This document shows positions 10,862-55,015 of a stretch of DNA of 64,000 bases, one piece after another. The position numbers and the translations under genes are program-made. Under the pieces are notes generated by a model. That model worked only from the letters and a program-made list of their open reading frames with translations, was not told where the DNA came from and did no database searches. This DNA is from Candidatus Oxydemutatoraceae bacterium (GTDB lineage: Bacteria > Pseudomonadota > Gammaproteobacteria > Poriferisulfidales > Oxydemutatoraceae). Position 1 is the stretch's first letter. Every line of letters starts with the position of its first letter. The DNA lies in contig OZ244717.1 of NCBI GenBank assembly GCA_965218975.1, positions 594,347 through 658,346 of the forward strand, written 5' to 3'.

Positions 10862-10877
10862 CCAGACTGCTGGCGAT

Positions 10878-24388: not shown

Positions 24389-24735
24389 GTATGCATGAAT
24401 GGTTTGAGAGTTACTACAGTTATTGGCTAACCATGCTACTGATGGTGATCGGTTTGTATATTGTGATTGCGTACGGCAATTTGGCAAAAAAATTGATCGG
24501 GTTGAATTTATTTCAAGGATCCGTCTTCGTTTTATTTATATTACTCGGCAAAATTGACAACGGCAGCGCGCCGATTCTAACCGAAACAGCCGAAGCGTAC
24601 GCCAACCCTCTACCGCATGTGTTGATACTGACCGCTATTGTCGTCGCTATTTCATCAACTGCTTTGGGTCTGGCATTGATCATCCGCATTCATCGCGCAT
24701 GGCACACTTTAGAGGAGAAAGACTTAGGTCGTTAA
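24385..24735 (+). CDS. mrpC: Antiporter subunit C (MrpC/MnhC, NuoK-like)
   Basis: 116-aa 3-TM NuoK-like protein. Confidence 0.8.
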   Translation: MSMHEWFESYYSYWLTMLLMVIGLYIVIAYGNLAKKLIGLNLFQGSVFVLFILLGKIDNGSAPILTETAEAYANPLPHVLILTAIVVAISSTALGLALIIRIHRAWHTLEEKDLGR

Positions 24736-24746
24736 TCGTACTGCCT

Positions 24747-26219
24747 ATGTTTGCTTATCTTCCGATACTGATCGTTGCTGTGCCGCTGTTTGCCGCACCG
24801 CTTTGTATATTGGCTCGTCGCACTGTTCTCGCCTGGATACTGGCGGTCGGTTGTGCAATCTTTACGCTGACCGCAGCCACGCAGATGCTAGCCGTCAGTT
24901 TGGATGGCACGGTTCTAATTCATCACTTAGGCGGCTGGGAGCCTCCGTGGGGAATTGCTTATCGGGTTGCCACGAGCAACGCATTCATTGCATTGCTAAT
25001 CGCATTCGTATTTAGCATCGTTCTGCTCTATGCAAAATGCAGTGTTTTGCAAGAGTTACGCGGCGGGCGGCCGGATATTTTCTTTGCAATCTGTCTGTTA
25101 TTGCTAAGCGGATTGATGGGCGTGGTAATATCGCATGATTTATTTAACATTTTCATTTTTCTTGAAATCGCCTCGTTATCGGGATATGCCTTAGTTGCAT
25201 TTAAACCCGGCGGGCGCGCACCGCTTGCAGCATTTCGCTATCTGGTGATCGGCACCCTTGGGGCAACATTGTTTTTAATCGGAATCGGCTACATCTACGC
25301 TTTGACCGGCACTTTAAATTTAAGCGATATCGCCCAGCGATTAACTGACGTTGCCGAAACCCGCCCGGCATTGGCGGCATTTGCGTTTATCGGGGTCGGG
25401 CTGATGCTGAAAATGGCATTATTTCCACTACACCAATGGTTGCCGGATGTTTATACTCAGGCCCCGGCGACGATATCCGCATTACTTAGTGCTGTTTCGG
25501 CAAAGGTTTCGTTGTATTTATTTATGACGTTATTCTTTCAGGTGTTTCAAATTCATACTTCCGAAGGAGCCGGGCATTTTGATACCATCCTGTTATCACT
25601 TTCGATGGCGGCAATTCTATTCGGCGCAATCGCCGCAATCGGACAAACCAATGTGAAGCGGATGATGGCATACTCAAGCGTGTCACAAATTGGCTATCTA
25701 ACTCTGAGCTTAGGGCTTGCTTCGATTGCCGGAATGACCGCATCTTTAATTCACATGTTCAATCATGCTTTCATCAAAGGCGGGTTATTTCTTGCGTTGG
25801 GAGGAGTCATTTATCGTTGTGGCAATGCGGACTTGTCCTCGTTTGCCGGGTTAGGCAAACGAATGCCGTATACTGCGGCGGCAATTGTCGTCGGTGGCCT
25901 GAGCCTGATCGGTATTCCTTTGACAAACGGCTTTATTAGCAAATGGTTTTTAATCAGCGCACTATGGGAACAAGGCTTTTGGTTTTTTATCGCGCTAGTA
26001 TTGCTTGGTTCTCTGCTAAGCGTCGTCTATGTTTGGCAGGTAATCGAACAAATGTACGCCCGCCCGCCCGCTGATAGGGCAAGCGATACAATTGAAGCGC
26101 CGTTTATATTGCTCGGCCCCATCTGGGTTTTCGCCGGACTCAATGTGTATCTTGGAATACATGCGAGCGGCTTGGTGCAAGTTGCTCAAATCTCCGCCCG
26201 AATACTGTTGAAGCAATAG
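24747..26219 (+). CDS. mrpD: Antiporter subunit D-like proton-conducting membrane transporter (NuoM/N-like)
   Basis: ~490 aa, 14-TM antiporter-like subunit; ATG 24747 chosen after the mrpC stop (track ORF starts at 24699). Confidence 0.75.
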   Translation: MFAYLPILIVAVPLFAAPLCILARRTVLAWILAVGCAIFTLTAATQMLAVSLDGTVLIHHLGGWEPPWGIAYRVATSNAFIALLIAFVFSIVLLYAKCSVLQELRGGRPDIFFAICLLLLSGLMGVVISHDLFNIFIFLEIASLSGYALVAFKPGGRAPLAAFRYLVIGTLGATLFLIGIGYIYALTGTLNLSDIAQRLTDVAETRPALAAFAFIGVGLMLKMALFPLHQWLPDVYTQAPATISALLSAVSAKVSLYLFMTLFFQVFQIHTSEGAGHFDTILLSLSMAAILFGAIAAIGQTNVKRMMAYSSVSQIGYLTLSLGLASIAGMTASLIHMFNHAFIKGGLFLALGGVIYRCGNADLSSFAGLGKRMPYTAAAIVVGGLSLIGIPLTNGFISKWFLISALWEQGFWFFIALVLLGSLLSVVYVWQVIEQMYARPPADRASDTIEAPFILLGPIWVFAGLNVYLGIHASGLVQVAQISARILLKQ

Positions 26220-26226
26220 TATAGCG

Positions 26227-27663
26227 ATGAGCACTCTCCAGAATCTATTATTATGGACAATTGCGTTGCCATTTATCGGGGCTTTGTCAATTGCATTTGC
26301 CGGACGCCGTCGTGATGTACCGGCGCTGACGATTCCTTTTGCCACACTGATTCTCCTTCTTTTGCTGGCGTATTCGTTTATGCAGGTATCTACCGAGCAA
26401 ACAGTCGGTTTTGTACTTGGCGAACTGGCGCCGGGTTTGCCAATCAGCTTTGCGATTGAACCCCTCGGCATGATTTTTGCCTGCGTCGTCGGTATTTTGT
26501 GGACGGTTAGTATGCTGTATTCGCTTGATTACCTATATGCAAATGGCCTGCAAAGCAAAACCCGATTTTGTGTTTGTTTTTTTCTCGCCATCGGCAGTAC
26601 TTTAGGAATCGCATTTGCCGGTGATTTGTTAACACTGCTAATTTTTTACGAACTGCTGACTTTGGTGACATATCCTTTGGTAACACATAGTGGAAGCGAT
26701 GCGGCCAAACGTGCCGGGCGGATTTATCTTGCCTTCTTGCTTGGTTCTTCATTTTTGTTGTTCTTGCCGGGCATTGTCTGGCTCTGGCTAAATTACGGCA
26801 CTTTAACATTTACTTCCGGGGGGATTGTTGGCGCGCAACCGCCGCATGCGATATGGTTATTGATACTTGCTTTTGGCGTTGGCAAAGCGGCATTGATGCC
26901 ATTTCACCGCTGGTTACCCGAAGCGATGGTCGCACCGGCGCCGGTAAGCGCACTCCTGCATGCTGTTGCCGTTGTTAAAGCCGGTGTGTTTACAATCGCA
27001 AAAATTGTTATTTATATCTTCGGGCCGGATTTTCTAGCGGCAAACGGCGGAAACTGGTTAGTTTATATTGCCGGCATTAGTATCTTAATCGCATCGTTGC
27101 TCGCACTGCATCAAGACAGCTTAAAGAAACGGCTTGCTTATTCAACCGTCAGTCAACTGTCCTACATTACGATGGGCGCAGCGCTGCTAAATCCGGCGGT
27201 CAGCGGAGCAGTTTTTCATTTGGCAGCGCACGCTTTTGCAAAGATCACGCTGTTTTTTGTTGCCGGAGCTATTCAAACCGTGACCGGGAAAGAAAAGATC
27301 AGCGAGCTTCGCGGCATCGGACAGGCAATGCCGTGGACAATGACATGCTTTACGATAGCCGCTGTCTCTTTAATTGGTTTGCCCCCCACCGCCGGCTTTG
27401 TCAGCAAATGGTACTTACTTGACGGCGCAATTCATTCGGCACATTATTTTGCCATCGGTGTATGGATCGTCAGCACTTTGCTGAACATTGCATATTTCGC
27501 ACCGATCATTTGTCGCGCATTTACCCCCGACTCACAAATCAACCCCTATGATTCACGCGAGGCGCCGTTCGGAATGTTGATTGCAATGCTTCTAACCACA
27601 TTGGCTGTTTTATTGTTATTCCTTTTCCCCGAATGGGTACTGAATCCGGCGCGGAAGATTTGA
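26227..27663 (+). CDS. Second MrpD/NuoM-like antiporter subunit
   Basis: 478-aa polytopic protein with the conserved WLPEAM...APVSALLHA and TVSQLSYI blocks of NuoL/M/N-MrpA/D. Confidence 0.75.
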   Translation: MSTLQNLLLWTIALPFIGALSIAFAGRRRDVPALTIPFATLILLLLLAYSFMQVSTEQTVGFVLGELAPGLPISFAIEPLGMIFACVVGILWTVSMLYSLDYLYANGLQSKTRFCVCFFLAIGSTLGIAFAGDLLTLLIFYELLTLVTYPLVTHSGSDAAKRAGRIYLAFLLGSSFLLFLPGIVWLWLNYGTLTFTSGGIVGAQPPHAIWLLILAFGVGKAALMPFHRWLPEAMVAPAPVSALLHAVAVVKAGVFTIAKIVIYIFGPDFLAANGGNWLVYIAGISILIASLLALHQDSLKKRLAYSTVSQLSYITMGAALLNPAVSGAVFHLAAHAFAKITLFFVAGAIQTVTGKEKISELRGIGQAMPWTMTCFTIAAVSLIGLPPTAGFVSKWYLLDGAIHSAHYFAIGVWIVSTLLNIAYFAPIICRAFTPDSQINPYDSREAPFGMLIAMLLTTLAVLLLFLFPEWVLNPARKI

Positions 27664-27896
27664 TGCGGAAAATACATTTTGGGGTCTATTTGGCAATAAT
27701 GCTATTTGCCTCAGTGTTGGCAGAAACCTTGATTGTACGTAAAGAGTATTTTGCTTCGGACAGCCTTGGCTTTTTTGCTTGGTACGGATTTTTAAGTTCT
27801 CTGGGATTAATTGGTGTGACAAAGCTCTTCGCATCATTGATTAAACGCGATGACAGCTACTACTTGAATCGGGAACGAGATGCCGATAATGATTGA
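27663..27896 (+). CDS. Small 2-TM membrane protein inside the mrp operon
   Basis: ATG overlaps the upstream stop (TGATG at 27661-27665); ~77 aa; hydrophobic. Confidence 0.4.
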   Translation: MRKIHFGVYLAIMLFASVLAETLIVRKEYFASDSLGFFAWYGFLSSLGLIGVTKLFASLIKRDDSYYLNRERDADND

Positions 27897-29568
27897 AACT
27901 GCCTTCAATCCCGGATGGCTGCCGATTGCCGTAGCGTTCTTGATCCCAATATTGAGTAGACCCGCACGTGGTCTAGTGTTGCTGGTTACACCGCTTATAG
28001 TCTTAGCACTCGTTTGGTTAACTGTTACCGCACCCTCCGGCAGCGGGTTTCTCAAGCTAACGCCGCATGCGTCTGTGGCACACGCTTTCGGGCATTTCTT
28101 TGCGATCGTTTTCGCCATCGCATTATTTGCCGGAAATCTGTTTGCTTTGAAGCAAGCAAACACGCTGGAATTAAGCGCTGCGTCTTTTTATGCCGGCAGT
28201 GCTATTTATGCTGTGCTATGTAACGACCTTTTGTCATTCGTCATTTTTTGGGAATTGATGATGTTGGGGTCGGCCGGGATTATTTTTGCGGCGGGAACCT
28301 CAACGGCTCGACAAGCGGGTATTCGTTATTTATTAGTCCACGGTTTATCCGGTGTGCTGTTGTTGATAGGGGTGCTGGGGGTCATCGGTCACACCGATGA
28401 TGCGGCTTTGCGCACTTTGTCATTGGAACATTGGTATCACTGGTTGATTTTGTTTGGCTTATTAATCAATGCAGGCGCACCGCCATTGTCCGCATGGGTG
28501 AGCGATGCCTATCCCGAAGCGAGTCCTAGCGGCAGCGTTTACTTATCAGCTTTTACAACCAAAACCGCAGTGTTCGGACTGCTGATCTTATTCCCCGGCG
28601 AGGCGGTCTTGATTCCTGTCGGATTGTATATGGTTTTCTACGGCATCATTTATGCGCTAGGTGAAAACGACATGCGGCGGATTCTTTCTTACAGCATCGT
28701 TAATCAAGTCGGCTTCATGATAGCCGGCATCGGTATCGGTACGACATTAGCGTTAAACGGCGCGGCGATGCATGCTTTTACACACATTATTTATAAAGCG
28801 CTGTTGATGATGTCTGCCGGTAGTGTTTTGTTGATGACCCAGCAACGAAAGTGCACGCAACTCGGCGGACTTTATCACAGTATGCGGCTGACAACCGTTT
28901 GCGGCATCATCGGGGCATTGGCAATTTCCGCTTTCCCGCTCACTTCCGGTTTCGTATCAAAACCTATGATAGGGCAAGCAGCGCTAGATCAACACCTGCT
29001 GTGGTTATGGTTGGCGCTGACCGCCGGTTCTGCCGGTGTGTTTCTTCATGCCGGAATTAAATTCCCATGGTTCGTATTTTTTCAGAAAGATTCCGGGCTG
29101 AGACCAAAGGACCCGCCGACTAATATGTGTAGTGCGATGGTTTTATCTGCACTGCTATGTATATTTCTAGGTGTTTTCCCAACGGTTTTATATAGTATCC
29201 AACCCTTAGCAGTTGCATACGTTCCATACACCGCCGAGCACCTAGTTACAAAATTTCAATTGCTGCTGTTTGCTGGGACGGCATTCTTTATTTGTTTACC
29301 ATGGCTAAAACGCGAGCAGGTCATTAGTTTGGATACCGACTGGTTATACCGCAGAGCTTTGCCGGTCGTCGCGCGGCAGATCAGTTTATGGCTTGTAATC
29401 GGTTCAAAAATATTAGATAAACCCGGCTGTCAAATCGTGCAACAGACACTGCAGCAAATCCGGAAATATCAAACAAGTGATCCGTTACTTGCTCAAAACG
29501 CCCAATCTGCCGTCATGGTCATTTGGTTAGCGACGTTACTTGCGCTGGTGCTATTTATTTATTACTAA
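27880..29568 (+). CDS. Third antiporter-like subunit (MrpA/NuoL-like, 562 aa)
   Basis: Large polytopic NuoL/MrpA-family protein (WVSDAYPEA...SAFTTKTAVFG, SIVNQVGFM blocks), last gene of the cluster. Confidence 0.7.
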   Translation: MPIMIETAFNPGWLPIAVAFLIPILSRPARGLVLLVTPLIVLALVWLTVTAPSGSGFLKLTPHASVAHAFGHFFAIVFAIALFAGNLFALKQANTLELSAASFYAGSAIYAVLCNDLLSFVIFWELMMLGSAGIIFAAGTSTARQAGIRYLLVHGLSGVLLLIGVLGVIGHTDDAALRTLSLEHWYHWLILFGLLINAGAPPLSAWVSDAYPEASPSGSVYLSAFTTKTAVFGLLILFPGEAVLIPVGLYMVFYGIIYALGENDMRRILSYSIVNQVGFMIAGIGIGTTLALNGAAMHAFTHIIYKALLMMSAGSVLLMTQQRKCTQLGGLYHSMRLTTVCGIIGALAISAFPLTSGFVSKPMIGQAALDQHLLWLWLALTAGSAGVFLHAGIKFPWFVFFQKDSGLRPKDPPTNMCSAMVLSALLCIFLGVFPTVLYSIQPLAVAYVPYTAEHLVTKFQLLLFAGTAFFICLPWLKREQVISLDTDWLYRRALPVVARQISLWLVIGSKILDKPGCQIVQQTLQQIRKYQTSDPLLAQNAQSAVMVIWLATLLALVLFIYY

Positions 29569-29755: not shown

Positions 29756-30613
29756 TTACCTTCCCGGAAAATTTCCAATGGCGATAGAAGAACGCCAAAG
29801 TCCGAATAAAAGGATGCTGATCCAAACAGTGGCGACCCAACCGCCCAAGACATCGGTACCGAGCCACGCGGATGCCGAATCGCCCGGAGACGTGAGATAC
29901 TGAAACAGCTTGAGGCTGAACACCATGGCTGCATGTGCGCCGATGCAAAGTGCCAAACAATTAAAACGCAGCCGCAACATACCGAGGCCGAGACCGACTA
30001 AAAACAACAGACAAAGGCGCGGCATCTGCTCAGCCCACTGAGTAGGCATTTCAAGCACAGCATCAATCAGCAGTACCCATCCTCCGTCCCATTGGCCGTT
30101 CAACATCGGCCCGGGCGCGGGGTTGAGGAAATGTATCCCCGCGTAGAACAGAGCCGAAGCCACCAGCGGCGCCCGGGACCGGGATGTCCGGGACAGTAGC
30201 AGACCACGAAAATATAGTTCCTCCACTGCGGCCACAATCATTGCGCTCGTCAGGTATGTCGCGATTCGGTAGCCTAGTTCGGAATTCCGTTCCCACGGAT
30301 CAACCATCATGCGCGCATCCAGTATCAGCAAAAAAATCCACCAGGGTGTCAACAGTGCAACCGTAACCGCAAAGGTCGATAGTGTTTGCACCAGAAAAGA
30401 TCCGACATTGGTTTGCAGACCGAGGGCACTACGGCTGACCCGCCGGCGTGCCCAGAATGCGAGGACTATTACAGCGGTCAGTAATGCGCCGTATCTGACG
30501 AATTTATGATGCGGAACCGGCGGCAGCCACAACGCGTATATTAAACCCCATAGAAAGGCCCCGCCTGCCAACGCAACGAGAAAGAGCAAAGAGTAAACCC
30601 AAAAATTGCGCAT
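29756..30613 (-). CDS. CPBP-family (CAAX-protease-like) intramembrane metalloprotease
   Basis: Motif 1 EELYFRG, motif 2 FxxxH (ALFYAGIHF), motif 3 HAAMVF within an 8-TM protein. Confidence 0.7.
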   Translation of the reverse strand: MRNFWVYSLLFLVALAGGAFLWGLIYALWLPPVPHHKFVRYGALLTAVIVLAFWARRRVSRSALGLQTNVGSFLVQTLSTFAVTVALLTPWWIFLLILDARMMVDPWERNSELGYRIATYLTSAMIVAAVEELYFRGLLLSRTSRSRAPLVASALFYAGIHFLNPAPGPMLNGQWDGGWVLLIDAVLEMPTQWAEQMPRLCLLFLVGLGLGMLRLRFNCLALCIGAHAAMVFSLKLFQYLTSPGDSASAWLGTDVLGGWVATVWISILLFGLWRSSIAIGNFPGR

Positions 30614-31124
30614 GAGCGGCTAACTCACTTTATTCTATCCGGGCATGCAACAGCGAAAAGCAATAGAGTTGATAGAGCATGCCGGTTTAAATGTCAATGA
30701 GATCATCTTGCGCAAGTTTGAGTTTCTTTGCTCGCGCTTAAAGATATTAGAAGGGCACACTCTTTGTCGACCCGGTAGCTGTTTGTGATGATGCGCCATA
30801 GATAAGTTTCTGTTATACGTGCCCGGATACCATACCGGATTTTGGACCTAAGAAAGTAACATTAATAATCTAGTCTACTCCAAAGACGGCAGACGTCACA
30901 TTCTATTTGATGCGAGCCGTATGGAAGCAAAAGCCGGAGGTGATGTCTTGGATGGGAAACCAATCTTGTCAGGCAACACAACATTAAGCGAGCTTAAATT
31001 ACTTGCGCTAGAAACTGTACGATGCCACCCTAAATGGGATTTTTGAAGGGCTTCGGGGGAAGCGTTCGGCAGTAACATTCGGATCGGTGCTTTCTGTCCG
31101 TTGCCGGCATGAGGACGGTGCAGG

Positions 31125-32563
31125 GTGAGACGCGCCCGGAAAACCAATTGGTTTTCAGCGGTGAACGACCCGACAAGGATGTCGGGGCTGGGGCTTGTTG
31201 ACAGAACCCAGTCGCGTCATGGGTGAGACGCGCCCGGAAAACCAATTGGTTTTCAGCGGTGAACGACCCGACAAGGATGTCGGGGCTGGGGCTTGTTGAC
31301 AGAACCCAGTCGCGTCATGGATGACAGGCACTTTGCCGACAATCCGGCACAATCCGCCGAAAATCCACCAACAAACACAAAACGGTTTCATCAGCTCAAA
31401 GATTTTATTGCTGCCGAGATTCGGATAAGCTTGGCGCAGGGTGAGACGCGCCCGGAAAACCGATCGGTTTTCAGCGGCGAACGACCCGACAAGGACGTCG
31501 GGGCTGGCGTTCATTAACAGAACCAAGTCTCGTCATGGGTGAGACGCGCCCGGAAAACCAATTGGTTTTCAGCGGTGAACGACCCGACAAGGATGTCGGG
31601 GCTGGGGCTTGTTGACAGAACCCAGTCGCGTCATGGATGACAGGCACTTTGCCGACAATCCGGCACAATCCGCCGAAAATCCGCCAACAAACACAAAACG
31701 GTTTCATCAGCTCAAAGATTTTATTGCTGCCGAGATTCGGATAAGCCTGGCGCAGGGTGAGACGCGCCCGGAAAACCAATTGGTTTTCAGCGGTGAACGA
31801 CCCGACACGGACGTCGGGGCTGGGGCTTGTTGACAGAACCCAGTCGCGTCATGGGTGAGACGCGCCCGGAAAACCAATTGGTTTTCAGCGGTGAACGACC
31901 CGACAAGGACGTCGGGGCTGGGGCTTGTTGACAGAACCCAGTCGCGTCATGGATGACAGGCACTTTGCCGACAATCCGGCACAATCCGCCGAAAATCCGG
32001 CAACAAACACAAAACGGTTTCATCAGCTCAAAGATTTTATTGCTGCCGAGATTCGGATAAGCCTGGCGCAGGGTGAGACGCGCCTGGAAAACCGATCGGT
32101 TTTCAGCGGCGAACGACCCGACAAGGACGTCGGGGCTGGCGTTCATTAACAGAACCAAGTCTCGTCATGGGTGAGACGCGCCCGGAAAACCAATTGGTTT
32201 TCAGCGGTGAACGACCCGACAAGGACGTCGGGGCTGGGGCTTGTTGACAGAACCCAGTCGCGTCATGGGTGAGACGCGCCCGGAAAACCGATCGGTTTTC
32301 AGCGGTGAACGACCCGACAAGGACGTCGGGGCTGGGGCTTGTTGACAGAACCCAGTCGCGTCATGGACGACAGGCACTTTGCTGAAAATCCACCAACAAA
32401 CACAAAACGGTTTCATCAGCTCAAAGATTTTATTGCTGCCGAGATTCGGATAAGCCTGGCGCAGGGTGAGACGCGCCTGGAAAACCGATCGGTTTTCAGC
32501 GGCGAACGACCCGACACGGACGTCGGGGCTGGCACTCATTAATAGAACCAAGTTTCGTCATGG
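31125..32563. repeat. Higher-order tandem repeat array: ten 98-bp R units and four ~120-bp S units arranged [R R S]x3 [R R R S'] [R ...], period 316 bp
   Basis: Variant a of R is GTGAGACGCGCCCGGAAAACCAATTGGTTTTCAGCGGTGAACGACCCGACAAGGATGTCGGGGCTGGGGCTTGTTGACAGAACCCAGTCGCGTCATGG. Variant b has GAAAACCGATCGGTTTTC, a compensatory change that keeps a perfect 18-bp palindrome. S is ATGACAGGCACTTTGCCGACAATCCGGCACAATCCGCC...GATTCGGATAAGCCTGGCGCAGG. Not coding, since 316 is not a multiple of 3 and stops occur in all frames. Confidence 0.9.
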
Positions 32564-32694
32564 ACGACAGGCACTTTGCTGACAACCCGCTGGCGCCTCT
32601 TACGCGGCGCTTTGCCGCGATCATGTAAGGCGCTGAGGCCAATGCGGCGATAACGCCGACGCCAGCGGTACAAAGTACTGCGACCGATCTTAAA

Positions 32695-32732
32695 TGCGTT
32701 CGGGAGTTACAACCCTCCCAAAATAATAGGGC
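32695..32732 (+). repeat. Left copy of a 36-38-bp imperfect direct repeat bracketing the IS1595-cargo unit
   Basis: AGTTACAACCCTCCCAAAATAATAGGGCATCATATTTC here versus AGTTACAACCCTGCCAAAATGAGGGCATCATATTTC at 35117-35152. Confidence 0.8.
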
Positions 32733-32792
32733 ATCATATTTCTGTTGAGCCGTTGTGTTCATAATAGCCTCTATTTTTGAAGCAAAATTGGC

Positions 32793-32890
32793 TCATATAG
32801 AAACCTTTGATGCGGTGGCCGATGTGCTGATATTGCATATCGGTTACCTTTTCGAGTCGTGCCGTGAGTCCCATATGTATCTGGCACTAT
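32793..32890 (+). repeat. ~100-bp element directly upstream of the transposase gene, repeated at 40545-40660
   Basis: ATAGAAACCTTT...GATGCGGTGGCCGATGTGCTGATATTGCATATCGG...GAGTCGTGCCGTGAGTCC...ATGTATCTGGCAC here, versus GATGCGATGACCGATGTGCTGATATTGCATGTCGG...GAGTCGTGCCATAAGTCCTGTATGTATCCGGACAC at 40545-40660. Confidence 0.7.
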
Positions 32891-32922
32891 ACATGATACG
32901 CTTGTAAAATGGAGGTGTTTTT

Positions 32923-33867
32923 ATGAAAAAAAGCAAATACAGTAACACGTTGAGCCTGTTTAATGCTATGAAAAAGTTTCCAACAAATGAGCAGGCTACC
33001 AAACATTTGGAAATAGTGCGTTGGGGAGGCAAGGCAAAGTGCCTATATTGTTTAACGCGCAATAAAATATCAGCGCGTAAAACCATAGGTCGCACGGCTG
33101 GACAATATCGTTGTAATTGTTGCCACAAAGAATTTACGGTGCGGACTGGCACTATCTTTGAAAAATCTCATTTACCATTGAATAAATGGATGTTTGCTAT
33201 TTACTTAGTACAAACTGCACGCAAGGGCATATCATCGTTACAATTAAGTAAAGAATTAGGCATTACTCAAAAGACAGCGTGGTTTATGCTTCACCGTATC
33301 CGCGAGGCGTGTAAAGGTGATTTGACCAAACTAACCGGCATTGTAGAGATAGACGAAACCTATATTGGCGGGAAAGAAAAAAACAAACATAAAAACAAGC
33401 GATTAAAGGCTGCCCGTGGAGCAGTTGGTAAAACTGCTATAGATGGTATGCGTGAACGCAAAGGCAAGGTTGAAGCAATGCTGATTGATAACACAGACCA
33501 ACATACACTACAAACGGCGATTCACCGCAATATCAATGTCGGTAGTCAGTTATACACCGATGATCATCGCGGTTATGCTGGATTGGATGGCGTGCTATAT
33601 CAGCATAAAAGTGTTAAGCATTCCGCTAACGAATATGTAAATGGTATGGCGCATACCAACGGCATAGAAAGTGTGTGGGCGGTGTTAAAGCGCGGCGTTA
33701 ATGGGACCTATCACAACATTACCACCAAACATTTACAGCGTTATGTTGGTGAATTTACGTTTCGGTTGAATGAGGGCAACGTTGAGCGACACACAAAACG
33801 ACGCATAGACAGTGTGCTTGCGGGGGCGATAGACAAACGATTAACATACAAAAGGCTAATATCATAA
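32923..33867 (+). CDS. IS1595-family (ISXO2-like) DDE transposase
   Basis: 314 aa; N-terminal zinc ribbon CLYCLTRNK...YRCNCCHKEF; DDE residues in IVEIDETYIGG, LYTDDHRGY and HTNGIESVWAVLKR. Confidence 0.8.
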   Translation: MKKSKYSNTLSLFNAMKKFPTNEQATKHLEIVRWGGKAKCLYCLTRNKISARKTIGRTAGQYRCNCCHKEFTVRTGTIFEKSHLPLNKWMFAIYLVQTARKGISSLQLSKELGITQKTAWFMLHRIREACKGDLTKLTGIVEIDETYIGGKEKNKHKNKRLKAARGAVGKTAIDGMRERKGKVEAMLIDNTDQHTLQTAIHRNINVGSQLYTDDHRGYAGLDGVLYQHKSVKHSANEYVNGMAHTNGIESVWAVLKRGVNGTYHNITTKHLQRYVGEFTFRLNEGNVERHTKRRIDSVLAGAIDKRLTYKRLIS

Positions 33868-34508
33868 TGCCTTCTATTACCGCACAACAGTTTAATACTG
33901 CATTGCAGATTATATTGGATGTAAAACCTATTACCCCGATAGGGCGTATCGCTAATTATATGAAAGAAACCAAGTATCCCAATGGGTTACATGCAGGTGA
34001 TGATGGCCGGATACTTGGTATATGGGTTATGGGCAATAACTATAAAGTTAAATCAGACTATTATGGTGGTTATCCTGCTGGTTATCTGAGGCGCATTAAA
34101 GCATTATTCCCTGACAAGCATAATCCCTTGCATTTATTTTCCGGTAAAGTTGAGTTGGATATTTTGGGGGGGGATACAGTAGATATGGATGAGGAATTAG
34201 AGCCAACATTTATTGATGATGCGCAAACATTAGTAAATGTACCGATAGAAGAATACGATTTGATATTGGCTGATCCGCCATACTCGGTTGAAGACGCAGA
34301 CCATTATAAACCGACAATGGTTAAGCGAAATAAAGTTATGAGTTCATTGGGCAAACGGGCAGTAAAAGGAACTCATGTGGTATGGTTAGACCAAGTGTTA
34401 CCGATGTATCGTAAAGATCAATGGGATATGATTGGACTGATAGGAATGGTTAAAAGCACTAATCACAGATTTAGAGTTATAAGCATTTTTGAGAAATGCG
34501 CAAGTTAG
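33867..34508 (+). CDS. Small SAM-dependent amino-methyltransferase with a DPPY catalytic motif
   Basis: 213 aa; putative motif I HLFSGKV ~50 aa before ILADPPY, spacing like RsmD and small gamma-class N6A MTases; start ATG overlaps the transposase stop (TAATG). Confidence 0.5.
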   Translation: MPSITAQQFNTALQIILDVKPITPIGRIANYMKETKYPNGLHAGDDGRILGIWVMGNNYKVKSDYYGGYPAGYLRRIKALFPDKHNPLHLFSGKVELDILGGDTVDMDEELEPTFIDDAQTLVNVPIEEYDLILADPPYSVEDADHYKPTMVKRNKVMSSLGKRAVKGTHVVWLDQVLPMYRKDQWDMIGLIGMVKSTNHRFRVISIFEKCAS

Positions 34509-34966
34509 AGTTAGAGCATAAATACGTGCTTGATTTAACCGATAAAATTCAGTTGGGGCCGATAAAAAGGCAGGTATTATATGAGCGTTTAACAGACGCA
34601 CGCATATCTGGTTTGTTAGTTGAGGATTTGGCTGATGCTATCTATAACAACGTTACCAAATCACCATCCCCAGCGTCCTCGTATGATCTAATGGATGATG
34701 ATGGCAATAAGTACGAAAGCAGGATTGTAAATATGAGGGGTGCTTCTTTAATCCCTGCAAATCAGGTCGGGAGTGGTCGCCGCTATAATCGCGAAAATCA
34801 TTTAGCGAAATTGGCAAGTTTATACGCATATTTGTTTGTAGATGTAAGAAGTTCGCCAGTGTTTAGTATAGTGGCATTCCCCGTAGGGATTTTGGGGGAG
34901 CGTAAAAGAATAACGACTATCCGGTTTGATGAACTAGTGAAGCCTATTCCAGTTACTAATATATGA
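34496..34966 (+). CDS. Hypothetical 156-aa protein, third gene of the IS-associated cassette
   Basis: Overlaps the MTase gene by 13 nt; no recognisable motif; a restriction-endonuclease partner role is a guess. Confidence 0.35.
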   Translation: MRKLELEHKYVLDLTDKIQLGPIKRQVLYERLTDARISGLLVEDLADAIYNNVTKSPSPASSYDLMDDDGNKYESRIVNMRGASLIPANQVGSGRRYNRENHLAKLASLYAYLFVDVRSSPVFSIVAFPVGILGERKRITTIRFDELVKPIPVTNI

Positions 34967-43429: not shown

Positions 43430-43628
43430 GCAGATAATAGCCTCGCCGTGCTAGTTCTCCCTCCGCCCACGGAAAAGGCGCAGGCAATCGCGCAATCGCC
43501 TGAATAACATCTTCTTTGCGCAGATTCACCAACCGTGCGGCGCCAACTTGCTCTGCTGTCAAAATAGGCTTCTTGGCTTGGTCGCGGCAAATCGCGCCGT
43601 CAGCGTGGAGATAAAGGTAAATTTTCAT
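43371..43628 (-). CDS. Phage hypothetical protein (85 aa; start uncertain)
   Basis: Small ORF overlapping its neighbour by 58 nt. Confidence 0.3.
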   Translation of the reverse strand: MKIYLYLHADGAICRDQAKKPILTAEQVGAARLVNLRKEDVIQAIARLPAPFPWAEGELARRGYYLHEYADGSFEFAEPTDEQDE

Positions 43629-44266
43629 GTTACTAAGTAGTAAATGAGCCGTCCCTCAAATGCCGCTAATTCGGTGTCGCTGGCGCCGGTGATGCTGTCA
43701 GGTTGATTGCGTGTCTCTACATTACCCAATGCGTTAGTCGGTAGACTGTACTTCAATGTCAGATAGTCATCGGTCTCCAGTACTGTCGTCACACTTCTGT
43801 AGTCGGTATTGGCCGGACGCCCGAAAGCAAAATAGGCATCGTCGCCAGTGAATCGGCGCGCGTATAACTGCACCCAGCGAGTATAAAAAGGTCCCTCTAA
43901 TTGTGATATCGCGCCTTTCGAGACTCTCCGCACATGTCCTTTGCTGTCAACCTCCACATGCGTAATCGCCTCCCCGGTCGCTGCCACAACGTTGGCAGGT
44001 GTCAGCAGTTGATTCGTGTGCTCCAATGTTCGCTCGCCGGCGCTATTGCTAAAAAGACGCAACGCGGCATCCAAGCCGAACAATTGATCTGCTTTGATTT
44101 TGGCGTCGGCATTTAGCGTAGGTATCCCGCTTGCTTGATTCAGCGCCTCAAGCAACTCAATGAATCGGTTGGCTAAGTTGAGGAGTTCCGCTCTCGCCAA
44201 AGACGGATTATCGCTGGCGGCGTCTAGGTGCCGCTTGAGTATGTCCGCTGGATTAGGTATCGGCAT
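43625..44266 (-). CDS. Phage tail protein (213 aa)
   Basis: Immediately downstream of the J-like gene. Confidence 0.45.
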   Translation of the reverse strand: MPIPNPADILKRHLDAASDNPSLARAELLNLANRFIELLEALNQASGIPTLNADAKIKADQLFGLDAALRLFSNSAGERTLEHTNQLLTPANVVAATGEAITHVEVDSKGHVRRVSKGAISQLEGPFYTRWVQLYARRFTGDDAYFAFGRPANTDYRSVTTVLETDDYLTLKYSLPTNALGNVETRNQPDSITGASDTELAAFEGRLIYYLVT

Positions 44267-47200
44267 CTATGCTTCCTCTTCCAATAGGATAATTTGCAAC
44301 GACGATAGTACGGCGGGCGATATTCCGTTCGTCATAATTCTCACTTGGAATTGGAATAGCCGTCCGGTAATTCGTTGATCTTCAGGTATCAATGTCCATT
44401 GATTGAAACCGCCCGAGTCGGGGTCAATCACACTGTACTCTAACGTGTAGCCGGATTCGCCCGTGATACCGGCCGACAGCAATGCTCTCACTGTTTTCTC
44501 AGTGAATACATCAATTAAATTTGTTTCGTATGTAGCTTCTTGCACCGGACTCTGTCCCCATATTGTCCAGTCAGCCCACGTCTGCGGCGCGGTGCTCCAC
44601 GTTAGAGATGAGGCGGTATGCAGATCACTGCCGCTGCGCACCAAGTTACCTATGAAGCCCGGCCATCTCTGCAAATGCTCGTTCGCGAAATAGATCGCCT
44701 GCCCGGGCGCGTTTACATTGAGATTAACTGTCTTATAAACGGCGTTTAATGATTCATTACCCGCGCGATTAACAGCTTTGACTCCAGCCGTATATGTGCC
44801 CGGAGGCAGGTGAAATGTTTCATGAGGGCTGGCGGTAATGAGCCCTTGATGCAGCGGCGTCATTGATTCCCACACACCGTCCAAGCCGATGGCCAACCGT
44901 ATCTGATAGCCTGCAACATCACCATCGTCTACCTCTCGCCATGAAATTGACGTGAGTCCTCCCGGGTCTTGGGTGATCATCAGCCCGAACACGTCATCGG
45001 GCACAATATCGTTATCTCGGAGCGTAATATTCTGACGCCACGCATGACCTGTATTTACGCCTCGTGCCCCCGGTATGATAATAACTGGATATCTACCGGT
45101 CTCTTGCGCCGGCACGGTCCACGAGGCACGTGTCGAATTCTCGATGTAGGTGACTTGCTCATGAGGGTCACCAACGAACACAGCGGCGGAAAAATAATCG
45201 CCACTCACGTCGAAAGCCAACGACAATACACGTTCATACACTCCATTACGGTATCGCCATAATTGCGTAACCGAGGTGCCGGTGATTATCGGCGCCTCAA
45301 ACCGCCGCCGCGCCTGTGCCACAACTGCCGGATTATTTTCTGCCTCATAGTATTCCGGCAGATAGTCAATACCGGTTAAAGTCGCTTGTCGCTCCTGCGT
45401 CCATTGCACACCGGTGATTTTGACTTGTCGGTGCCGGCCGCCCAGCCCAAAGTGAAAGTGTATATCGTCCGTCTGCCAATCATCGCTGATGCCGACATCA
45501 GCCGTATCACCATCTGTAGCGGAGACGGCGGGGGTAATCAGGATCACCTTCGCCGCATCGCTGCCGGGTCTGGCTTTAAACACCTTGACCGCGCCATTCG
45601 GATAAAACAGCGTGAGATACGCTTCTGCTCTGCCGCGAAAATCAACTGTCGCAGGTAGGCCGACCACGTTGTCCTCGCTGTCCCAACTCTTGATTCGACC
45701 CGCCGCATCAATGCGCGGAATTGCCATCGCAACGACATCGCCGCGGCTCAGCAATAACGCCTCCATGCCCATCTGCCAACTCTGCCCTCGTCGCAGCAAT
45801 TGGTTTGCCGACCACTGCAAATTCGCCTCCTTTTCCGCTTGCTTGCGCGTAGTCACGCCGACCAATTCGACGTTCGCTTGATTCGCGATAGCGCCTGTCG
45901 CAGTCGCGACGTTCGGCACGCGGATCGTGGAGTGCTCCCAGTGGTTCTCGGGATCAATATAGCGGGCGACGACTTGCTCCGCCAACGCATGCCCGCCGGC
46001 CCACTCGAGCGTGTGCGATCCCGCAATAATGTTAGCCGGTGACACAAGCATTGCTGACGGTTTGTGCGGCGCATCATACGATACGGATAATCTGCCGGCC
46101 GGCCAACCCCACGCCGCTCGCCCGCACCGTGCGATGACGTCTAGCACTCCCGCATGACTGTGCCCGCGTACGACATAGTCGCAATGGAGTTCGTTGTCCT
46201 GGCAAAACTCTGCCCAGTCGTTAAGATTGCCGATCATCTCGTCAGGCAATCCGATGCCGCCGGCGAGTACGTTGTCCGGGCGACGGAAACCGCGCGCATA
46301 CGCACGGAATATGGCTGCCGGATTACGCATTCGGTTGTCCCAGCTTTCCGGCGCTTTGACCCATGCCTCGTTATCGCTATCATAATAAGGAATCATCTGC
46401 CGGCAGAGCGACGACCATGTATTGATCTGGCCGGAGAGTTGCCCCGTAGCACGAATCACAACAGCCTCGCGCACTTGCCCGACGTAATCCGCAGTGTCCG
46501 GTTGATAGGCTTTGAGCTGCACCCACTCAAATGTATTCGTCTGCCCGAAACTGCCGGCCGAATCGTGATCTTCGGTCAACTTAGTAACGGCGACATCGTA
46601 TTCGCCGGCGGCATCAAGCCGGTAGCGGTAAGTTTTGCGCACCGGTTTCGTATTGTCGTTGCTGATATTGATCGTGTCGAGCCGCTGCCAATTATCCATG
46701 CCGACCAGACGCGTATCCACCGTGACCTCAATTGATGCAGTGCGCACTCCCTTCTTCGTCAGATCAAACAATATGCCGGTCAAATCCACTGCAATCTCGT
46801 CCACGTTGTCCGGCGTCGTACGCTCAACCGCATTATCGTGAGTTAGTTCGGCACCGGTGATAATAGCCACGTCGCCCGAATAACTCTGCAGCGCACCGGT
46901 AACTGCATGCGACTGCTCCGTCTCCACATCGTCGTATTGATCAATGCCGATGGTGCCGATGCGTGTGTCGCTGATTGCCACATTTCCGACCCCGTAATGA
47001 AACACTTGCTGTAAGTATTGCTTGTCGCCCTCAAAGTAAGTGACCGGTGCCGCCGCATTGTCTGGCTGCACGCGGTGTTCGCCGAGCACGAGCATAAACG
47101 GTTCCCACAGGCGCGTCTGGTTGCGCGCCGCGCTCAACGAGTAGATCGGCTCTTGTTCCTGTTGTCGCCGATTGCTTGGTTGCGGCACGGACGGCGCGAA

Positions 47201-47623
47201 TGCGCCGGCAATGAGCAGCCCGCCGACTGTGGTAATAGCCTGCGCGAATTTTGCGCCGATGGTGAAGCCGCCGATCTTCGTGCCTTCGATAGCGCCGGCG
47301 ACCACCGGCCCGACATAAAAAGCGGCAAACGCGAATGCGACTATCGCGATGATACTCCCGATGTTAAGGTCGCCTCGCACGACTGCGTGCACCTCAACGA
47401 TGTCGCGAGGACCGAGCCGATAGGAAAATGCACGGTCGTTGTCTATCTGCACACCGTTTACTCGGATGACCGGTGTGCCGGCGACCGTCGGCACGCGCAG
47501 ACGCTCAACATAACTAATGAGTGTCTCACCGTCTCGCGGTGGCATAAACAATACCTTGCGCTCGCCCGGCTGTAGCGGATGCGGCGAGATAATGAGCGAC
47601 GGCGGGATTAAGGCTTGTTCCAC
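44267..47623 (-). CDS. Host-specificity protein J-like central tail fibre/tip protein
   Basis: 1118 aa; the giant ORF after the K-like gene is typical of gpJ. Confidence 0.7.
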   Translation of the reverse strand: MEQALIPPSLIISPHPLQPGERKVLFMPPRDGETLISYVERLRVPTVAGTPVIRVNGVQIDNDRAFSYRLGPRDIVEVHAVVRGDLNIGSIIAIVAFAFAAFYVGPVVAGAIEGTKIGGFTIGAKFAQAITTVGGLLIAGAFAPSVPQPSNRRQQEQEPIYSLSAARNQTRLWEPFMLVLGEHRVQPDNAAAPVTYFEGDKQYLQQVFHYGVGNVAISDTRIGTIGIDQYDDVETEQSHAVTGALQSYSGDVAIITGAELTHDNAVERTTPDNVDEIAVDLTGILFDLTKKGVRTASIEVTVDTRLVGMDNWQRLDTINISNDNTKPVRKTYRYRLDAAGEYDVAVTKLTEDHDSAGSFGQTNTFEWVQLKAYQPDTADYVGQVREAVVIRATGQLSGQINTWSSLCRQMIPYYDSDNEAWVKAPESWDNRMRNPAAIFRAYARGFRRPDNVLAGGIGLPDEMIGNLNDWAEFCQDNELHCDYVVRGHSHAGVLDVIARCGRAAWGWPAGRLSVSYDAPHKPSAMLVSPANIIAGSHTLEWAGGHALAEQVVARYIDPENHWEHSTIRVPNVATATGAIANQANVELVGVTTRKQAEKEANLQWSANQLLRRGQSWQMGMEALLLSRGDVVAMAIPRIDAAGRIKSWDSEDNVVGLPATVDFRGRAEAYLTLFYPNGAVKVFKARPGSDAAKVILITPAVSATDGDTADVGISDDWQTDDIHFHFGLGGRHRQVKITGVQWTQERQATLTGIDYLPEYYEAENNPAVVAQARRRFEAPIITGTSVTQLWRYRNGVYERVLSLAFDVSGDYFSAAVFVGDPHEQVTYIENSTRASWTVPAQETGRYPVIIIPGARGVNTGHAWRQNITLRDNDIVPDDVFGLMITQDPGGLTSISWREVDDGDVAGYQIRLAIGLDGVWESMTPLHQGLITASPHETFHLPPGTYTAGVKAVNRAGNESLNAVYKTVNLNVNAPGQAIYFANEHLQRWPGFIGNLVRSGSDLHTASSLTWSTAPQTWADWTIWGQSPVQEATYETNLIDVFTEKTVRALLSAGITGESGYTLEYSVIDPDSGGFNQWTLIPEDQRITGRLFQFQVRIMTNGISPAVLSSLQIILLEEEA

Positions 47624-47982
47624 CGGTAGTACCCCTCAACGGCCAGCATCTGTTTTGCTAATATCGGTAGCGTGCTCAAGAATACACCGCCTGCCATCTG
47701 CGAATTATGTACCACGACGAGGTGCTTGAGCACCTTTGCTGCAACGCCCAAATGATAGCCTTTTACTCCCTTCATCAATACTGCATCGCCGTCTTTCGGA
47801 TCGTCGGTCTTTGCCCACCTTGGTGGCCAATGTCGACGAATGAAGGCAGGTGTCAATGCTTCATCCTGCGGTAAGACTAGGTCGCGCCCAAATTCTTGCC
47901 GCTGCACGTCGGCGAAAAATGCCGCGCAATCGTACTCATCGCTGTAGCGTGCACCTAACCAATTCGTAAACCAGTACGACAT
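47608..47982 (-). CDS. Tail assembly protein K-like NlpC/P60 (C40) peptidase-fold protein
   Basis: 124 aa with Cys motif YDCAAFFADV and downstream His residues. Confidence 0.5.
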   Translation of the reverse strand: MSYWFTNWLGARYSDEYDCAAFFADVQRQEFGRDLVLPQDEALTPAFIRRHWPPRWAKTDDPKDGDAVLMKGVKGYHLGVAAKVLKHLVVVHNSQMAGGVFLSTLPILAKQMLAVEGYYRWNKP

Positions 47983-48473
47983 CAGAAAAATAACCCCGGC
48001 GCTGTTGCCGGTTCAAACCGCTGCCGGACCGCCGGCCGGTTTAATGTGTTTGGCAGCCCCAACCGGAAAACAATCTCGCGCGCGGTCGCCTGAATGCCGA
48101 CGACCTCAAGCCCGCGAAAGGCAAACTTAACGTCGTCCGGTTCGCTACGTGCGACCTCAAGTAAATTGACTGTGGCGCCGTCGGCGCCGTTCGTCTGATC
48201 AATCACGTCAACCAGCGCATCAATGCGGTCGAATGCGATGGAGGCAGAGGGTTGTTGCCCCTCTTGTTCAGACGGTTTGCGGGCAACGAAACGTGCGCGA
48301 TGATAAGTGTATCCGTTCGACACAAAATCCTCCACGTCATTTGCCAACCGAAACGGCTCAACCAAATCAGGATGCACGAACTCAAGCAGCGTCACGGTTG
48401 CCGGTAAGTCACCGCGCAGTAGTTGCTCCGCCAATGTCATGCGAAAAACTCCAGCGTTAAATACGCCTGCCAC
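47982..48473 (-). CDS. Minor tail protein L-like
   Basis: 163-aa ORF between the M-like and K-like genes in lambda-type order. Confidence 0.5.
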   Translation of the reverse strand: MAGVFNAGVFRMTLAEQLLRGDLPATVTLLEFVHPDLVEPFRLANDVEDFVSNGYTYHRARFVARKPSEQEGQQPSASIAFDRIDALVDVIDQTNGADGATVNLLEVARSEPDDVKFAFRGLEVVGIQATAREIVFRLGLPNTLNRPAVRQRFEPATAPGLFF

Positions 48474-51205: not shown

Positions 51206-51255
51206 TAATTCATAATCACCCTTTGCGCCGCTAAACCAATGTTCCGCGGCGCCGA

Positions 51256-53685: not shown

Positions 53686-53688
53686 GTG

Positions 53689-54995: not shown

Positions 54996-55015
54996 AATAA
55001 TTTCTCCTTTGTGAA

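What the first reader, a model, noticed from the sequence alone, without database searches (positions are those of the whole stretch)
31125..32563. 1.44-kb higher-order tandem array of 98-bp palindrome-bearing units with compensatory variant
Ten copies of a 98-bp unit R alternate with four copies of a ~120-bp unit S, in the pattern R-R-S repeated with a 316-bp period. R contains a perfect 18-bp palindrome that exists in two versions, GAAAACCAATTGGTTTTC and GAAAACCGATCGGTTTTC. The change AATT to GATC preserves dyad symmetry, which argues for selection on a dimeric protein-binding site or a hairpin. R also carries a 7-bp-stem hairpin CCCGACA-AGGA-TGTCGGG. The array is noncoding, because 316 is not a multiple of 3, although spurious ORFs appear on both strands. 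Repeats this long, with identical spacers, rule out CRISPR. It could be a centromere/iteron-like protein-binding array, a family of structured RNAs, or a satellite created by unequal crossing-over next to the IS element. I do not recognise it as a described repeat family.
Basis: seen in the sequence. Interest (0 to 1): 0.7.

Follow-up and report, generated by a model that had tools for sequence, protein, structure and literature searches.

The report
Tandem array inside decayed insertion sequence
The 1.4-kb repeat array is real, but it is an amplified internal piece of a dead, shrunken IS481-like jumping gene. It is genomic debris that keeps rearranging, not a new protein-binding or RNA device.

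Summary
There are ten 98-bp R units and four S units (three of 120 bp, one of 99 bp) at 31123-32561, arranged RRS x3, then RRR-S'-R.

The array lies inside an IS-derived element, window 31017-32893, whose sense strand is the window minus strand. A different metagenome contig (L002) carries the same element as a 545-bp single-R version with TGTA... inverted ends.

Nearly all of the element is transposase pseudogene. A frameshifted HTH N-terminus sits right of the array. The first half of each S encodes LRQAYPNLGSNKIFELMKPFC. The first 36 nt of R come from the first catalytic-Asp region. The 106 bp left of the array encode the C-terminus (RPH...WHRT). Joined together, the fragments hit about 350-aa rve/IS481-like transposases (E 1.6e-82).

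Only the 62-nt hairpin core of R has no traceable origin.

At least seven other ORFs in a 2.08-Mb genome contig, probably the source genome, carry R joined to other transposase fragments. A near-identical strain (flank 99.97% identical) has a differently arranged array.

There is no covariation, no Rfam hit and no rep/par context. The AATT/GATC "compensatory" change is one linked event at two CpG sites, and an asymmetric intermediate exists.

Verdict: an unstable satellite inside a decayed mini-IS. Interest is low.

The parts
31017..31122 (-). Remnant of the transposase C-terminus (...LHRPHAGNGQKAPIRMLLPNASPEALQKSHLGWHRT), ending in the right inverted end of the element. That end reads TGTACGATGCCACCC... 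from 31017 on the + strand.
   Evidence: Profile hits to tnp HMM positions 316-349. tblastn to P0162, P0166 and P0024. Similarity to L002, P0010, P0011 and P0012 stops at this point. The ends were aligned.
31123..32561 (-). The tandem array: 10 R units (98 bp) and 4 S units (120, 120, 120 and 99 bp). R units start at 31123, 31221, 31439, 31537, 31755, 31853, 32071, 32169, 32267 and 32464. S units are 31319-31438, 31635-31754, 31951-32070 and 32365-32463.
31377..31439 (-). Example of the sense-strand first half of S, a transposase fragment encoding LRQAYPNLGSNKIFELMKPFC. The same fragment occurs at 31693-31755, 32009-32071 and 32402-32464.
   Evidence: tblastn to P0024 aa 75-95 (E 3e-5 per copy) and to P0016 (E 6e-6). 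Profile positions 98-125.
31283..31357 (-). Example of the sense-strand last part of S plus the first 36 nt of R. It is derived from the transposase region around the first catalytic Asp.
   Evidence: DNA local alignment to the interior of L001 S-long scores 56, against 16.6 +/- 2.3 (max 29) for shuffles. The matching S-long stretch reads as a degraded ...DTTVRYV motif at the position of the first catalytic Asp. That coding assignment is indirect: tblastn is weak (E 0.02-0.13) and the profile finds nothing there. P0008 maps the paralogous upstream stretch to profile positions 120-182 (E 1.9e-21).
31221..31282 (-). Example of the 62-nt R core, which carries both hairpins (CCCGAC..GTCGGG and GAAAACC-NNNN-GGTTTTC). 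Its origin was not traced. It is the most conserved part of R.
   Evidence: Both stems are invariant in all 19 copies from three loci. No significant similarity to the transposase profile or homologues or to S-long DNA.
32562..32762 (-). Frameshifted N-terminal HTH remnant of the transposase (MNTTAQQKYDALLFWEG / NAFKIGRSTLYRWRRRYRRIGLSALHDRGKAPRKRRQR), followed by the short pre-R stretch.
   Evidence: Pfam HTH_28 E 2.8e-7, above the cutoff. tblastn to P0014 and P0016 E 1e-17. Intact paralogue P0001.
32763..32893 (-). Leader, including the N-terminal extension MQYQHIGHRIKGFY (from 32838), and the left inverted end, which reads TGTATAGTGCCAGAT... from 32893 on the minus strand.
   Evidence: blastn to L002:9881 onward. 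P0162 and P0039 N-terminal alignments. Ends aligned.

Best explanation
The array is the amplified interior of a decayed, non-autonomous relative of the IS481 family. The element spans window 31017-32893, and its sense strand is the window minus strand.

Its basic form, seen as a 545-bp single-R copy in another organism, reads: left inverted end, leader, HTH N-terminus of the transposase, a short piece of the first catalytic-Asp region, a 62-nt two-hairpin core, the last ~35 codons of the transposase, right inverted end.

In this genome the middle has been duplicated head to tail. S+R is collinear with the transposase gene, with internal deletions: the LRxxxPNLG..KPFC piece, then the Asp-region piece, then the core. 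New joins formed at the end of R (R to S, and R to R) turned this into a higher-order repeat of RRS.

Shown here: the identity of the fragments, the element's boundaries, the existence of single-R and multi-R versions, and the differences between two nearly identical strains.

Inferred:
- The first duplications and deletions arose by replication template-switching at short microhomologies. All R-to-downstream joins share ...CACCCTG.
- This switching was probably stimulated by the two hairpins.
- Once 98-316-bp repeats existed, unequal homologous recombination and gene conversion expanded, contracted and homogenised the array.

The array most likely has no cellular function. The perfect palindrome and its two versions need no selection. 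GATC is the version in the single-copy outgroup. AATT differs from it by two CpG transitions at the symmetric cytosines of CGATCG. Symmetric methyl-cytosine deamination or quasi-palindrome template correction would produce exactly that.
For: - HTH_28 domain in the right flank.
- Homologues of the HTH ORF include ~320-360-aa proteins.
- A composite of the fragments hits 550 rve/rve_3/HTH_32 transposases, best E 1.6e-82 at 100% coverage. The best NCBIfam model is IS481.
- S, the tail and the HTH map to ordered positions of the transposase.
- ORFs from other loci of a 2.08-Mb genome contig, probably the source genome, join R to profile positions 101-123, 120-182, 237-311 and 316-349.
- The first 36 nt of R are DNA-homologous to the Asp-region of a longer fragment.
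- L002 holds a 545-bp single-R element with the same ends at an unrelated locus, beside serine-cycle genes.
- L001 is the same locus, with 7,063 bp of flank at 99.97% identity, but its array is arranged differently.
- No covariation in any stem. No Rfam family. No promoter or terminator pattern per unit.
Against: - The 62-nt hairpin core could not be traced to the transposase gene or to anything else.
- The core is the best conserved part of R. Both stems are invariant in 19 copies, including the diverged L002 copy. Both observations leave room for constraint.
- R folds better than shuffled sequence (z -3.4 to -3.8 for the common variant).
- No target-site duplication was found at the element's ends, and the inverted ends are imperfect.
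- The closest full-length transposases score below NCBIfam's IS481 cutoff (176-177 bits against 224).
- The other loci of the source genome were seen only as predicted proteins, not as DNA.
- L001 is a low-coverage contig (its name says 2x), so part of its difference from the window could be assembly error.
Confidence: 0.82

Rival explanations
1. R, or its 62-nt hairpin core, is an independent small palindromic mobile element (MITE- or REP-like). It inserted into an IS481-like gene and now spreads or recombines on its own, dragging pieces of transposase gene with it.
For: - The core has no detectable homology to the transposase or to the longer fragment.
- R has short complementary termini (GACGCG/CGCGTC) and folds into a closed multi-hairpin shape.
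- R is joined to four different transposase positions downstream.
Against: - The first 36 nt of R are transposase-derived and continuous with the preceding sequence, so R as a unit is not foreign.
- Every R seen (window, L001, L002, P0004-P0012) sits in IS481-like context.
- Exact-pattern scans found no copy in GTDB representative genomes, JGI metagenomes, viral contigs, plasmids, phages or E. coli.
- The closing stem is broken in half of the distinct copies.
- No target duplications were found.
Confidence: 0.08
2. The array is a functional set of protein-binding sites: an iteron or centromere-like array, or a sink for the truncated HTH transposase-domain proteins encoded by sister copies. The 18-bp dyad would be the site.
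For: - A perfect dyad is kept in every copy, including L002, and in two symmetric versions.
- Intact 81-aa HTH ORFs exist in what is probably the same genome.
Against: - There are no rep, par or partition genes nearby.
- The dyad does not resemble the element's inverted ends, where IS481/IS3-type HTH domains normally bind (plus general knowledge of these families).
- An asymmetric centre, AATC, exists.
- The basic element has one R, so the array is a secondary expansion.
Confidence: 0.04
3. Each R encodes a small structured RNA, so the array is a multicopy sRNA array or a cis-regulatory structure on the sense transcript.
For: - Fold z-scores of -3.4 to -3.8 for the common variant.
- The one variable stem position, A/G at R position 41, keeps pairing (A-U to G-U) only on the minus-strand RNA.
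Against: - No pair shows changes on both sides, and two of the five helices are broken in many copies.
- No Rfam match even at E<=1.
- No promoter-like or terminator-like site per unit.
- The variant R folds with z of only -2.1.
Confidence: 0.04
4. The array is an assembly artefact, a mis-expanded repeat.
For: Repeats of 98-316 bp at 88-100% identity are hard to assemble from short reads. L001's arrangement differs from the window's.
Against: - Two independent assemblies both show many R units at this locus.
- The units carry ordered, distinct variants.
- R-R and R-S-R arrangements also occur in ORFs from other loci.
Confidence: 0.02

Closest known systems
IS481-family insertion sequences (single-ORF rve DDE transposase with N-terminal HTH_28/HTH_32)
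   Same: - The fragments reassemble into an HTH + rve + rve_3 protein.
- NCBIfam's best model is IS481 for both the fragments and their closest full-length relatives.
- The ends start TGTA....
   Different: - There is no intact transposase here.
- The closest full-length relatives score below the curated IS481 cutoff (176-177 bits against 224).
- No target-site duplication was seen.
- The interior carries an untraceable 62-nt hairpin core and a tandem array.
Bacterial MITEs and other non-autonomous deletion derivatives of IS elements (for example MITEAba12, PMC6382973; RUP and Correia elements from general knowledge)
   Same: - A short element (545 bp in L002) with inverted ends and no working transposase.
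- Several copies in one genome, derived from a parent IS by internal deletion.
   Different: - It retains a sizeable HTH ORF.
- The inverted ends are imperfect and no direct repeats flank it.
- Its interior has been tandemly amplified into a higher-order array, which is not a usual MITE feature in bacteria.
Bacterial minisatellites / VNTRs formed by slippage and unequal recombination (for example mycobacterial MIRU loci; general knowledge)
   Same: - Head-to-tail units of ~100 bp.
- Unit number and order differ between near-identical strains.
- No demonstrable function.
   Different: - The units are transposase pseudogene pieces.
- The repeat is higher-order (RRS, 316 bp) and sits inside a mobile-element remnant.
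Palindrome/quasi-palindrome-associated template-switch mutagenesis (general knowledge; Ripley- and Lovett-type mechanisms)
   Same: - Rearrangement end points cluster next to hairpins at 3-7-nt microhomologies.
- A symmetric double change lies inside a perfect palindrome.
   Different: This is a proposed mechanism only. Nothing here measures it.

Membership tests
IS481-family element (parent of the array) | Transposase with an rve-type DDE catalytic domain preceded by an HTH | tested here: met
   - HTH_28 in the window.
- P0009, a paralogous fragment flanked by R, matches profile positions 237-311 (E 4.5e-32) and NCBIfam IS481 (E 2.6e-7).
- The composite hits rve/rve_3/HTH_32 proteins at E 1.6e-82.
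IS481-family element (parent of the array) | Score above the curated NCBIfam NF033577 (transpos_IS481) cutoff | tested here: not met
   P0162 scores 176.3 bits, P0024 177 bits and the composite 104 bits, against a cutoff of 224. IS481 is nevertheless the best family, ahead of IS3. It is therefore IS481-like, not a certified member.
IS481-family element (parent of the array) | Terminal inverted repeats (typically beginning TGT) and short target-site duplication | tested here: inconclusive
   The ends are TGTATAGTGCCA... and TGTACGATGCCA..., with about 16 of 24 positions matching. No direct repeat was found at either the window or the L002 copy.
MITE / non-autonomous IS derivative | Short, lacks a functional transposase, bounded by the parent's inverted ends, multicopy | tested here: met
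   - The L002 element is 545 bp with the same ends.
- ORFs are frameshifted or truncated.
- At least 6 further HTH starts and several tails occur in a 2.08-Mb genome contig, probably the source genome.
- Mobility itself was not tested.
Iteron / centromere-like (parS, plasmid iteron) array | Repeated binding sites next to a rep or par gene whose product binds them | tested here: not met
   The neighbours are a CPBP protease, Mrp-type antiporter genes, an IS1595 transposase and two unknown ORFs. No rep/par family was found. Binding itself cannot be tested here.
CRISPR array | Short (about 24-48 bp) repeats separated by unique spacers | tested here: not met
   The units are 98 bp. The intervening S units are near-identical to each other, or absent altogether.
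REP/BIME-type palindromic units | 20-40-nt imperfect palindromes, often in alternating orientation, dispersed genome-wide | tested here: not met
   All units are direct repeats and 98 bp long. They occur only at this site in the 64-kb window. No copies were found in other collections.
Any described RNA family (Rfam 15) or tRNA-like gene | Covariance-model match, or a tRNA/tmRNA call | tested here: not met
   cmscan at E<=1 on both strands gave 0 hits. ARAGORN gave 0 genes. No compensatory pairs were found.

The most novel reading that the evidence does not exclude
The 62-nt two-hairpin core is not debris but an active module. One version: a DNA structure that repeatedly seeds template-switch duplications and deletions, and so "breeds" arrays at several loci. 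Another version: a bound or transcribed element, for example a target of the truncated HTH proteins encoded by sister copies, kept intact by selection. Either would explain why both stems are invariant across three loci in two sequence lineages while the rest of the element decays.
Probability: 0.07. Interest if true: 0.55.

Novelty: new member of a known kind. Interest (0 to 1): 0.22.

Why it matters
Its main value is as a correct annotation. A striking "palindrome array" turns out to be an amplified piece of a dead IS481-like element, so it should not be pursued as a new regulatory or partition system.

It is a tidy example of how a decaying insertion sequence can turn into a hypervariable minisatellite, with rearrangement joins clustered beside hairpins. 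That could make it useful as a strain-typing marker for this organism, and as a natural case of palindrome-associated rearrangement.

The one real loose end is the untraceable and unusually well-conserved 62-nt hairpin core.

Tried and rejected
- **Known RNA.** Rfam at E<=1 and ARAGORN found nothing.
- **Per-unit promoters or terminators.** None found.
- **Known repeat in E. coli, plasmids or phages.** No match.
- **Exact-pattern scans for the palindrome plus flank.** GTDB representative genomes, JGI metagenomes and viral contigs all returned nothing.
- **Synteny search with the neighbouring CPBP protein in GTDB genomes.** No relative found.
- **Small-gene readings.** I considered each R encoding a small peptide (MGETRPENQLVFSGERPDKDVGAGAC on the + strand), or S encoding a type-I-toxin-like peptide (MKPFCVCWW...). 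I dropped both once the minus-strand frames matched transposase fragments.
- **R as an exact 98-nt insertion.** I considered this because removing one R restores the reading frame. I dropped it because the first 36 nt of R are continuous transposase sequence.
- **The last 62 nt of R as the diverged transposase segment just before RPH.** Pairwise tblastn alignments extend into it. However, the profile gives no gain over the tail alone (11.8 against 12.7 bits; shuffles average 11.5). A 114-homologue shuffle test is also null. Rejected as unsupported.
- **Homology of the core to the longer S-long fragment.** Score 15 against a shuffle mean of 14.7. Rejected.
- **DNA of the other loci.** Look-ups for P0001-P0003 and P0005 failed. 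So did look-ups for other window proteins. The organism's name was not obtained.

Full report
**1. The observation**

The region was read directly.
- TRF finds a 316-bp period over 31120-32272 (3.6 copies, 95% matches), plus 98-bp sub-periods.
- Two R-specific motifs of 24 and 26 nt each occur exactly ten times, only here. Shuffles give zero.
- BLAST of one R against the window gives ten full-length copies at 85-100% identity.

The unit order is RRS RRS RRS RRR S' R. Three S units are 120 bp. S' is 99 bp because it lacks 21 bp of an internal 11-bp sub-repeat.

Six palindromes have an AATT centre and four have GATC. The second hairpin has a perfect 7-bp stem in only three copies.

The description is therefore confirmed with small corrections. 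Seven other perfect palindromes of 14-16 bp occur in the window. The 18-mer is one uncommon sequence that has been copied, not ten independent events.

**2.

- There is no Rfam hit on either strand, even at E<=1.
- There is no tRNA-like gene.
- No promoter-like or terminator-like site recurs with the units.
- There is no similar DNA in E. coli genomes, plasmids or phages.
- Exact-pattern scans for the palindrome plus flank found nothing in GTDB representative genomes, JGI metagenomes or viral contigs.

**3. The flanks give it away**

On the minus strand, the sequence just right of the array (32762 down to 32587) translates, with one frameshift, to MNTTAQQKYDALLFWEG / NAFKIGRSTLYRWRRRYRRIGLSALHDRGKAPRKRRQR. 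This matches Pfam HTH_28 above its cutoff (E 2.8e-7) and also transposase-type HTH models.

A word-indexed protein search found three paralogues on a single 2.08-Mb genome contig. One is an intact 81-aa version, P0001. All of them run into the start of an R unit (...VPVVHDETWFCQ).

A full HMMER scan with P0001 found 354 relatives, many of them 320-360 aa long. Those proteins are HTH + rve transposases. NCBIfam's best model for them is IS481, at 176-177 bits and E ~1e-52, though this is below the curated 224-bit cutoff.

**4. Mapping the array onto the transposase**

tblastn with five full-length homologues and two profile HMMs gave the following map. Sense means the window minus strand.
- **Right flank:** HTH, profile positions ~26-93.
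- **First 63 nt of every S:** LRQAYPNLGSNKIFELMKPFC, which matches LRHSYPNMGAPKIYYFLKPWC (aa 75-95 of P0024). E is 3e-5 per copy.
- **The 106 bp left of the array:** LHRPHAGNGQKAPIRMLLPNASPEALQKSHLGWHRT, the C-terminal RPH...WHRT end of the protein (profile 316-349).
- **The rest of S plus the first 36 nt of R:** DNA-homologous to the interior of a longer fragment (S-long) in contig L001. The alignment scores 56, against 16.6 +/- 2.3 (max 29) for shuffles. That stretch reads as a degraded copy of the motif around the first catalytic Asp (...DTTVRYV). This coding assignment is weaker than the DNA match itself (tblastn E 0.02-0.13; no profile hit).

S followed by R is therefore collinear with the gene, with internal deletions.

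A composite of all fragments was used as a query. About 12 residues were borrowed from homologue P0016 to bridge a gap. It hits 550 rve/rve_3/HTH_32 proteins, the best at E 1.6e-82 with full coverage.

**5. What could not be mapped**

The last 62 nt of R, which carry both hairpins, could not be placed.
- Pairwise tblastn alignments from the tail extend into this stretch.
- The profile gives no gain over the tail alone: 11.8 against 12.7 bits, with shuffled versions averaging 11.5.
- A shuffle test over 114 homologues is null.
- The core has no significant DNA similarity to S-long.

Its origin is open. It could be strongly diverged coding sequence, filler at a deletion join, or a small foreign insert.

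**6. The element and its relatives**

ORFs predicted over R/S-like DNA elsewhere on that 2.08-Mb contig (P0004-P0011) show R joined downstream to four different transposase positions. I take this contig to be the source genome. The evidence is only that the exact CPBP protein is recorded on a contig of more than 1 Mb.
- LRQAYP... (profile 101-123)
- CPSVRTIARLIADAPDKMR... (120-182, E 1.9e-21)
- TDGGSEF...FNDRLW (237-311, E 4.5e-32)
- the RPH tail (316-349)

R-R tandems appear in at least three of these ORFs. As far as the window DNA and the back-read protein sequences show, all R-to-downstream joins share ...CACCCTG.

A 57-kb ENA contig from another organism (L002, beside serine-cycle genes) has a single 545-bp element at 9881-10425. 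It aligns at 83% to window 32893-32463 and at 86% to 31221-31014. That is the whole window element with one R in place of the array.

Both copies end in similar imperfect inverted repeats: TGTATAGTGCCA... and TGTACGATGCCA.... No target duplication was found.

No other fragment of this IS occurs in the window.

**7. Dynamics**

ENA contig L001 is the same locus. Its 7,063 bp of flank are 99.97% identical to the window, with no mismatches. Yet its array differs: it has at least 9 R units in another order, a 300-bp S-long in place of one S, and one asymmetric palindrome centre.

L001's name indicates 2x coverage, so some small differences may be errors. The large-scale difference is unlikely to be.

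**8. Structure and the "compensatory" change**

R folds into a closed shape with three hairpins on either strand. The z-score is -3.4 to -3.8 for the common variant and -2.1 for the other.

In an alignment of 19 R copies from three loci:
- variation is concentrated in the first 36 nt;
- both hairpin stems never vary;
- the other two helices are broken in many copies;
- no pair shows changes on both sides.

Invariant stems say nothing either way about pairing. The only stem change (A/G at R position 41) keeps pairing only on minus-strand RNA, which is a weak hint at most.

The AATT/GATC difference sits in what would be the loop of a hairpin.
- The two changes are linked to one another and largely to other variant positions, so they represent one event that was later copied.
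- The single-copy outgroup L002 has GATC.
- The two differences are G-to-A and C-to-T at the two CpGs of CGATCG.
- An AATC intermediate exists.

Symmetric deamination of a methylated palindromic site, or quasi-palindrome template correction, would give this pattern without selection. Both mechanisms come from general knowledge and were not tested here.

**9. Conclusion**

The array is a higher-order tandem amplification of the interior of a decayed, non-autonomous IS481-like element.

The most likely process is template switching at microhomologies beside the hairpins, which created the first joins. Unequal homologous recombination and gene conversion then followed. This process is inferred, not shown.

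No evidence supports a binding-site array or an RNA family.

Residual uncertainty concerns the origin of the 62-nt core and its unusually good conservation.

The thing belongs to known kinds (IS remnant, MITE-like derivative, bacterial minisatellite). The particular combination is not one I can point to in the literature. One search on IS481 and MITE terms returned nothing specific.

Noticed in passing
window 32923-34966: An IS1595-family transposase gene (NCBIfam E 6e-62) starts only 30 bp beyond the left end of the IS481-like element. Two overlapping ORFs of 213 and 156 aa follow, with no Pfam or NCBIfam match. GC drops to 0.39-0.42 here, so this may be a cargo-carrying transposon or a small island.
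   Followed up: partly
window ~43600-62200: A prophage-like block on the minus strand. It includes a TipJ-family host-specificity protein (44267-47623), a tape-measure protein (48793-51003) and an SPP1 gp7-like minor capsid protein (57493-58848). GC is 0.53-0.60, higher than the surroundings.
   Followed up: partly
window 8783-13247: A GC-rich (0.56-0.60) pair of large minus-strand ORFs. One is a helicase/restriction-like protein (weak RadD and type I R-subunit hits). The other has a sacsin-type P-loop N-terminal domain. This may be a defence island.
   Followed up: no
window 31651-31690 and the equivalent positions in each S: An 11-bp sub-repeat (GCCGACAATCC, 3.7 copies) lies inside S. S' at 32365-32463 lacks 21 bp of it. 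Paralogous ORFs P0006 and P0007 show it expanded (GGLCRIV repeated). This is a minisatellite within the satellite.
   Followed up: partly
protein P0007 (another locus on the 2.08-Mb genome contig): The transposase tail runs almost directly into the start of another HTH ORF (...FRVASYTSIMEAHEHSKLQQKY...). This suggests that whole mini-elements are also joined head to tail elsewhere in that genome. The DNA was not retrievable.
   Followed up: no
protein P0013 (representative library, unknown source): A 981-aa predicted protein made of 14 near-identical ~70-aa tandem repeats, each weakly matching residues 10-36 of the HTH ORF. It may be another tandemly amplified transposase fragment in an unrelated organism, or a chance match.
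   Followed up: no
L002:10400-10440: The right end of the single-R element carries a 13-nt near-duplicate of its terminus (GTGCCATCGTACA GTGGCATCGTACA). This makes the exact end ambiguous.
   Followed up: no
window 30631-30658 / 30807-30834: A 28-nt imperfect inverted repeat (71% complementary, arms 148 nt apart) lies between the CPBP protease gene and the IS-derived element.
   Followed up: no
window 24699-29568 and 29756-30613: Mrp/NADH-dehydrogenase-type antiporter subunit genes (Proton_antipo_M) are followed by a CPBP (Rce1-like) intramembrane protease gene. The protease gene lies downstream of the array and in the same orientation as its sense strand, so read-through from the element is conceivable.
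   Followed up: no
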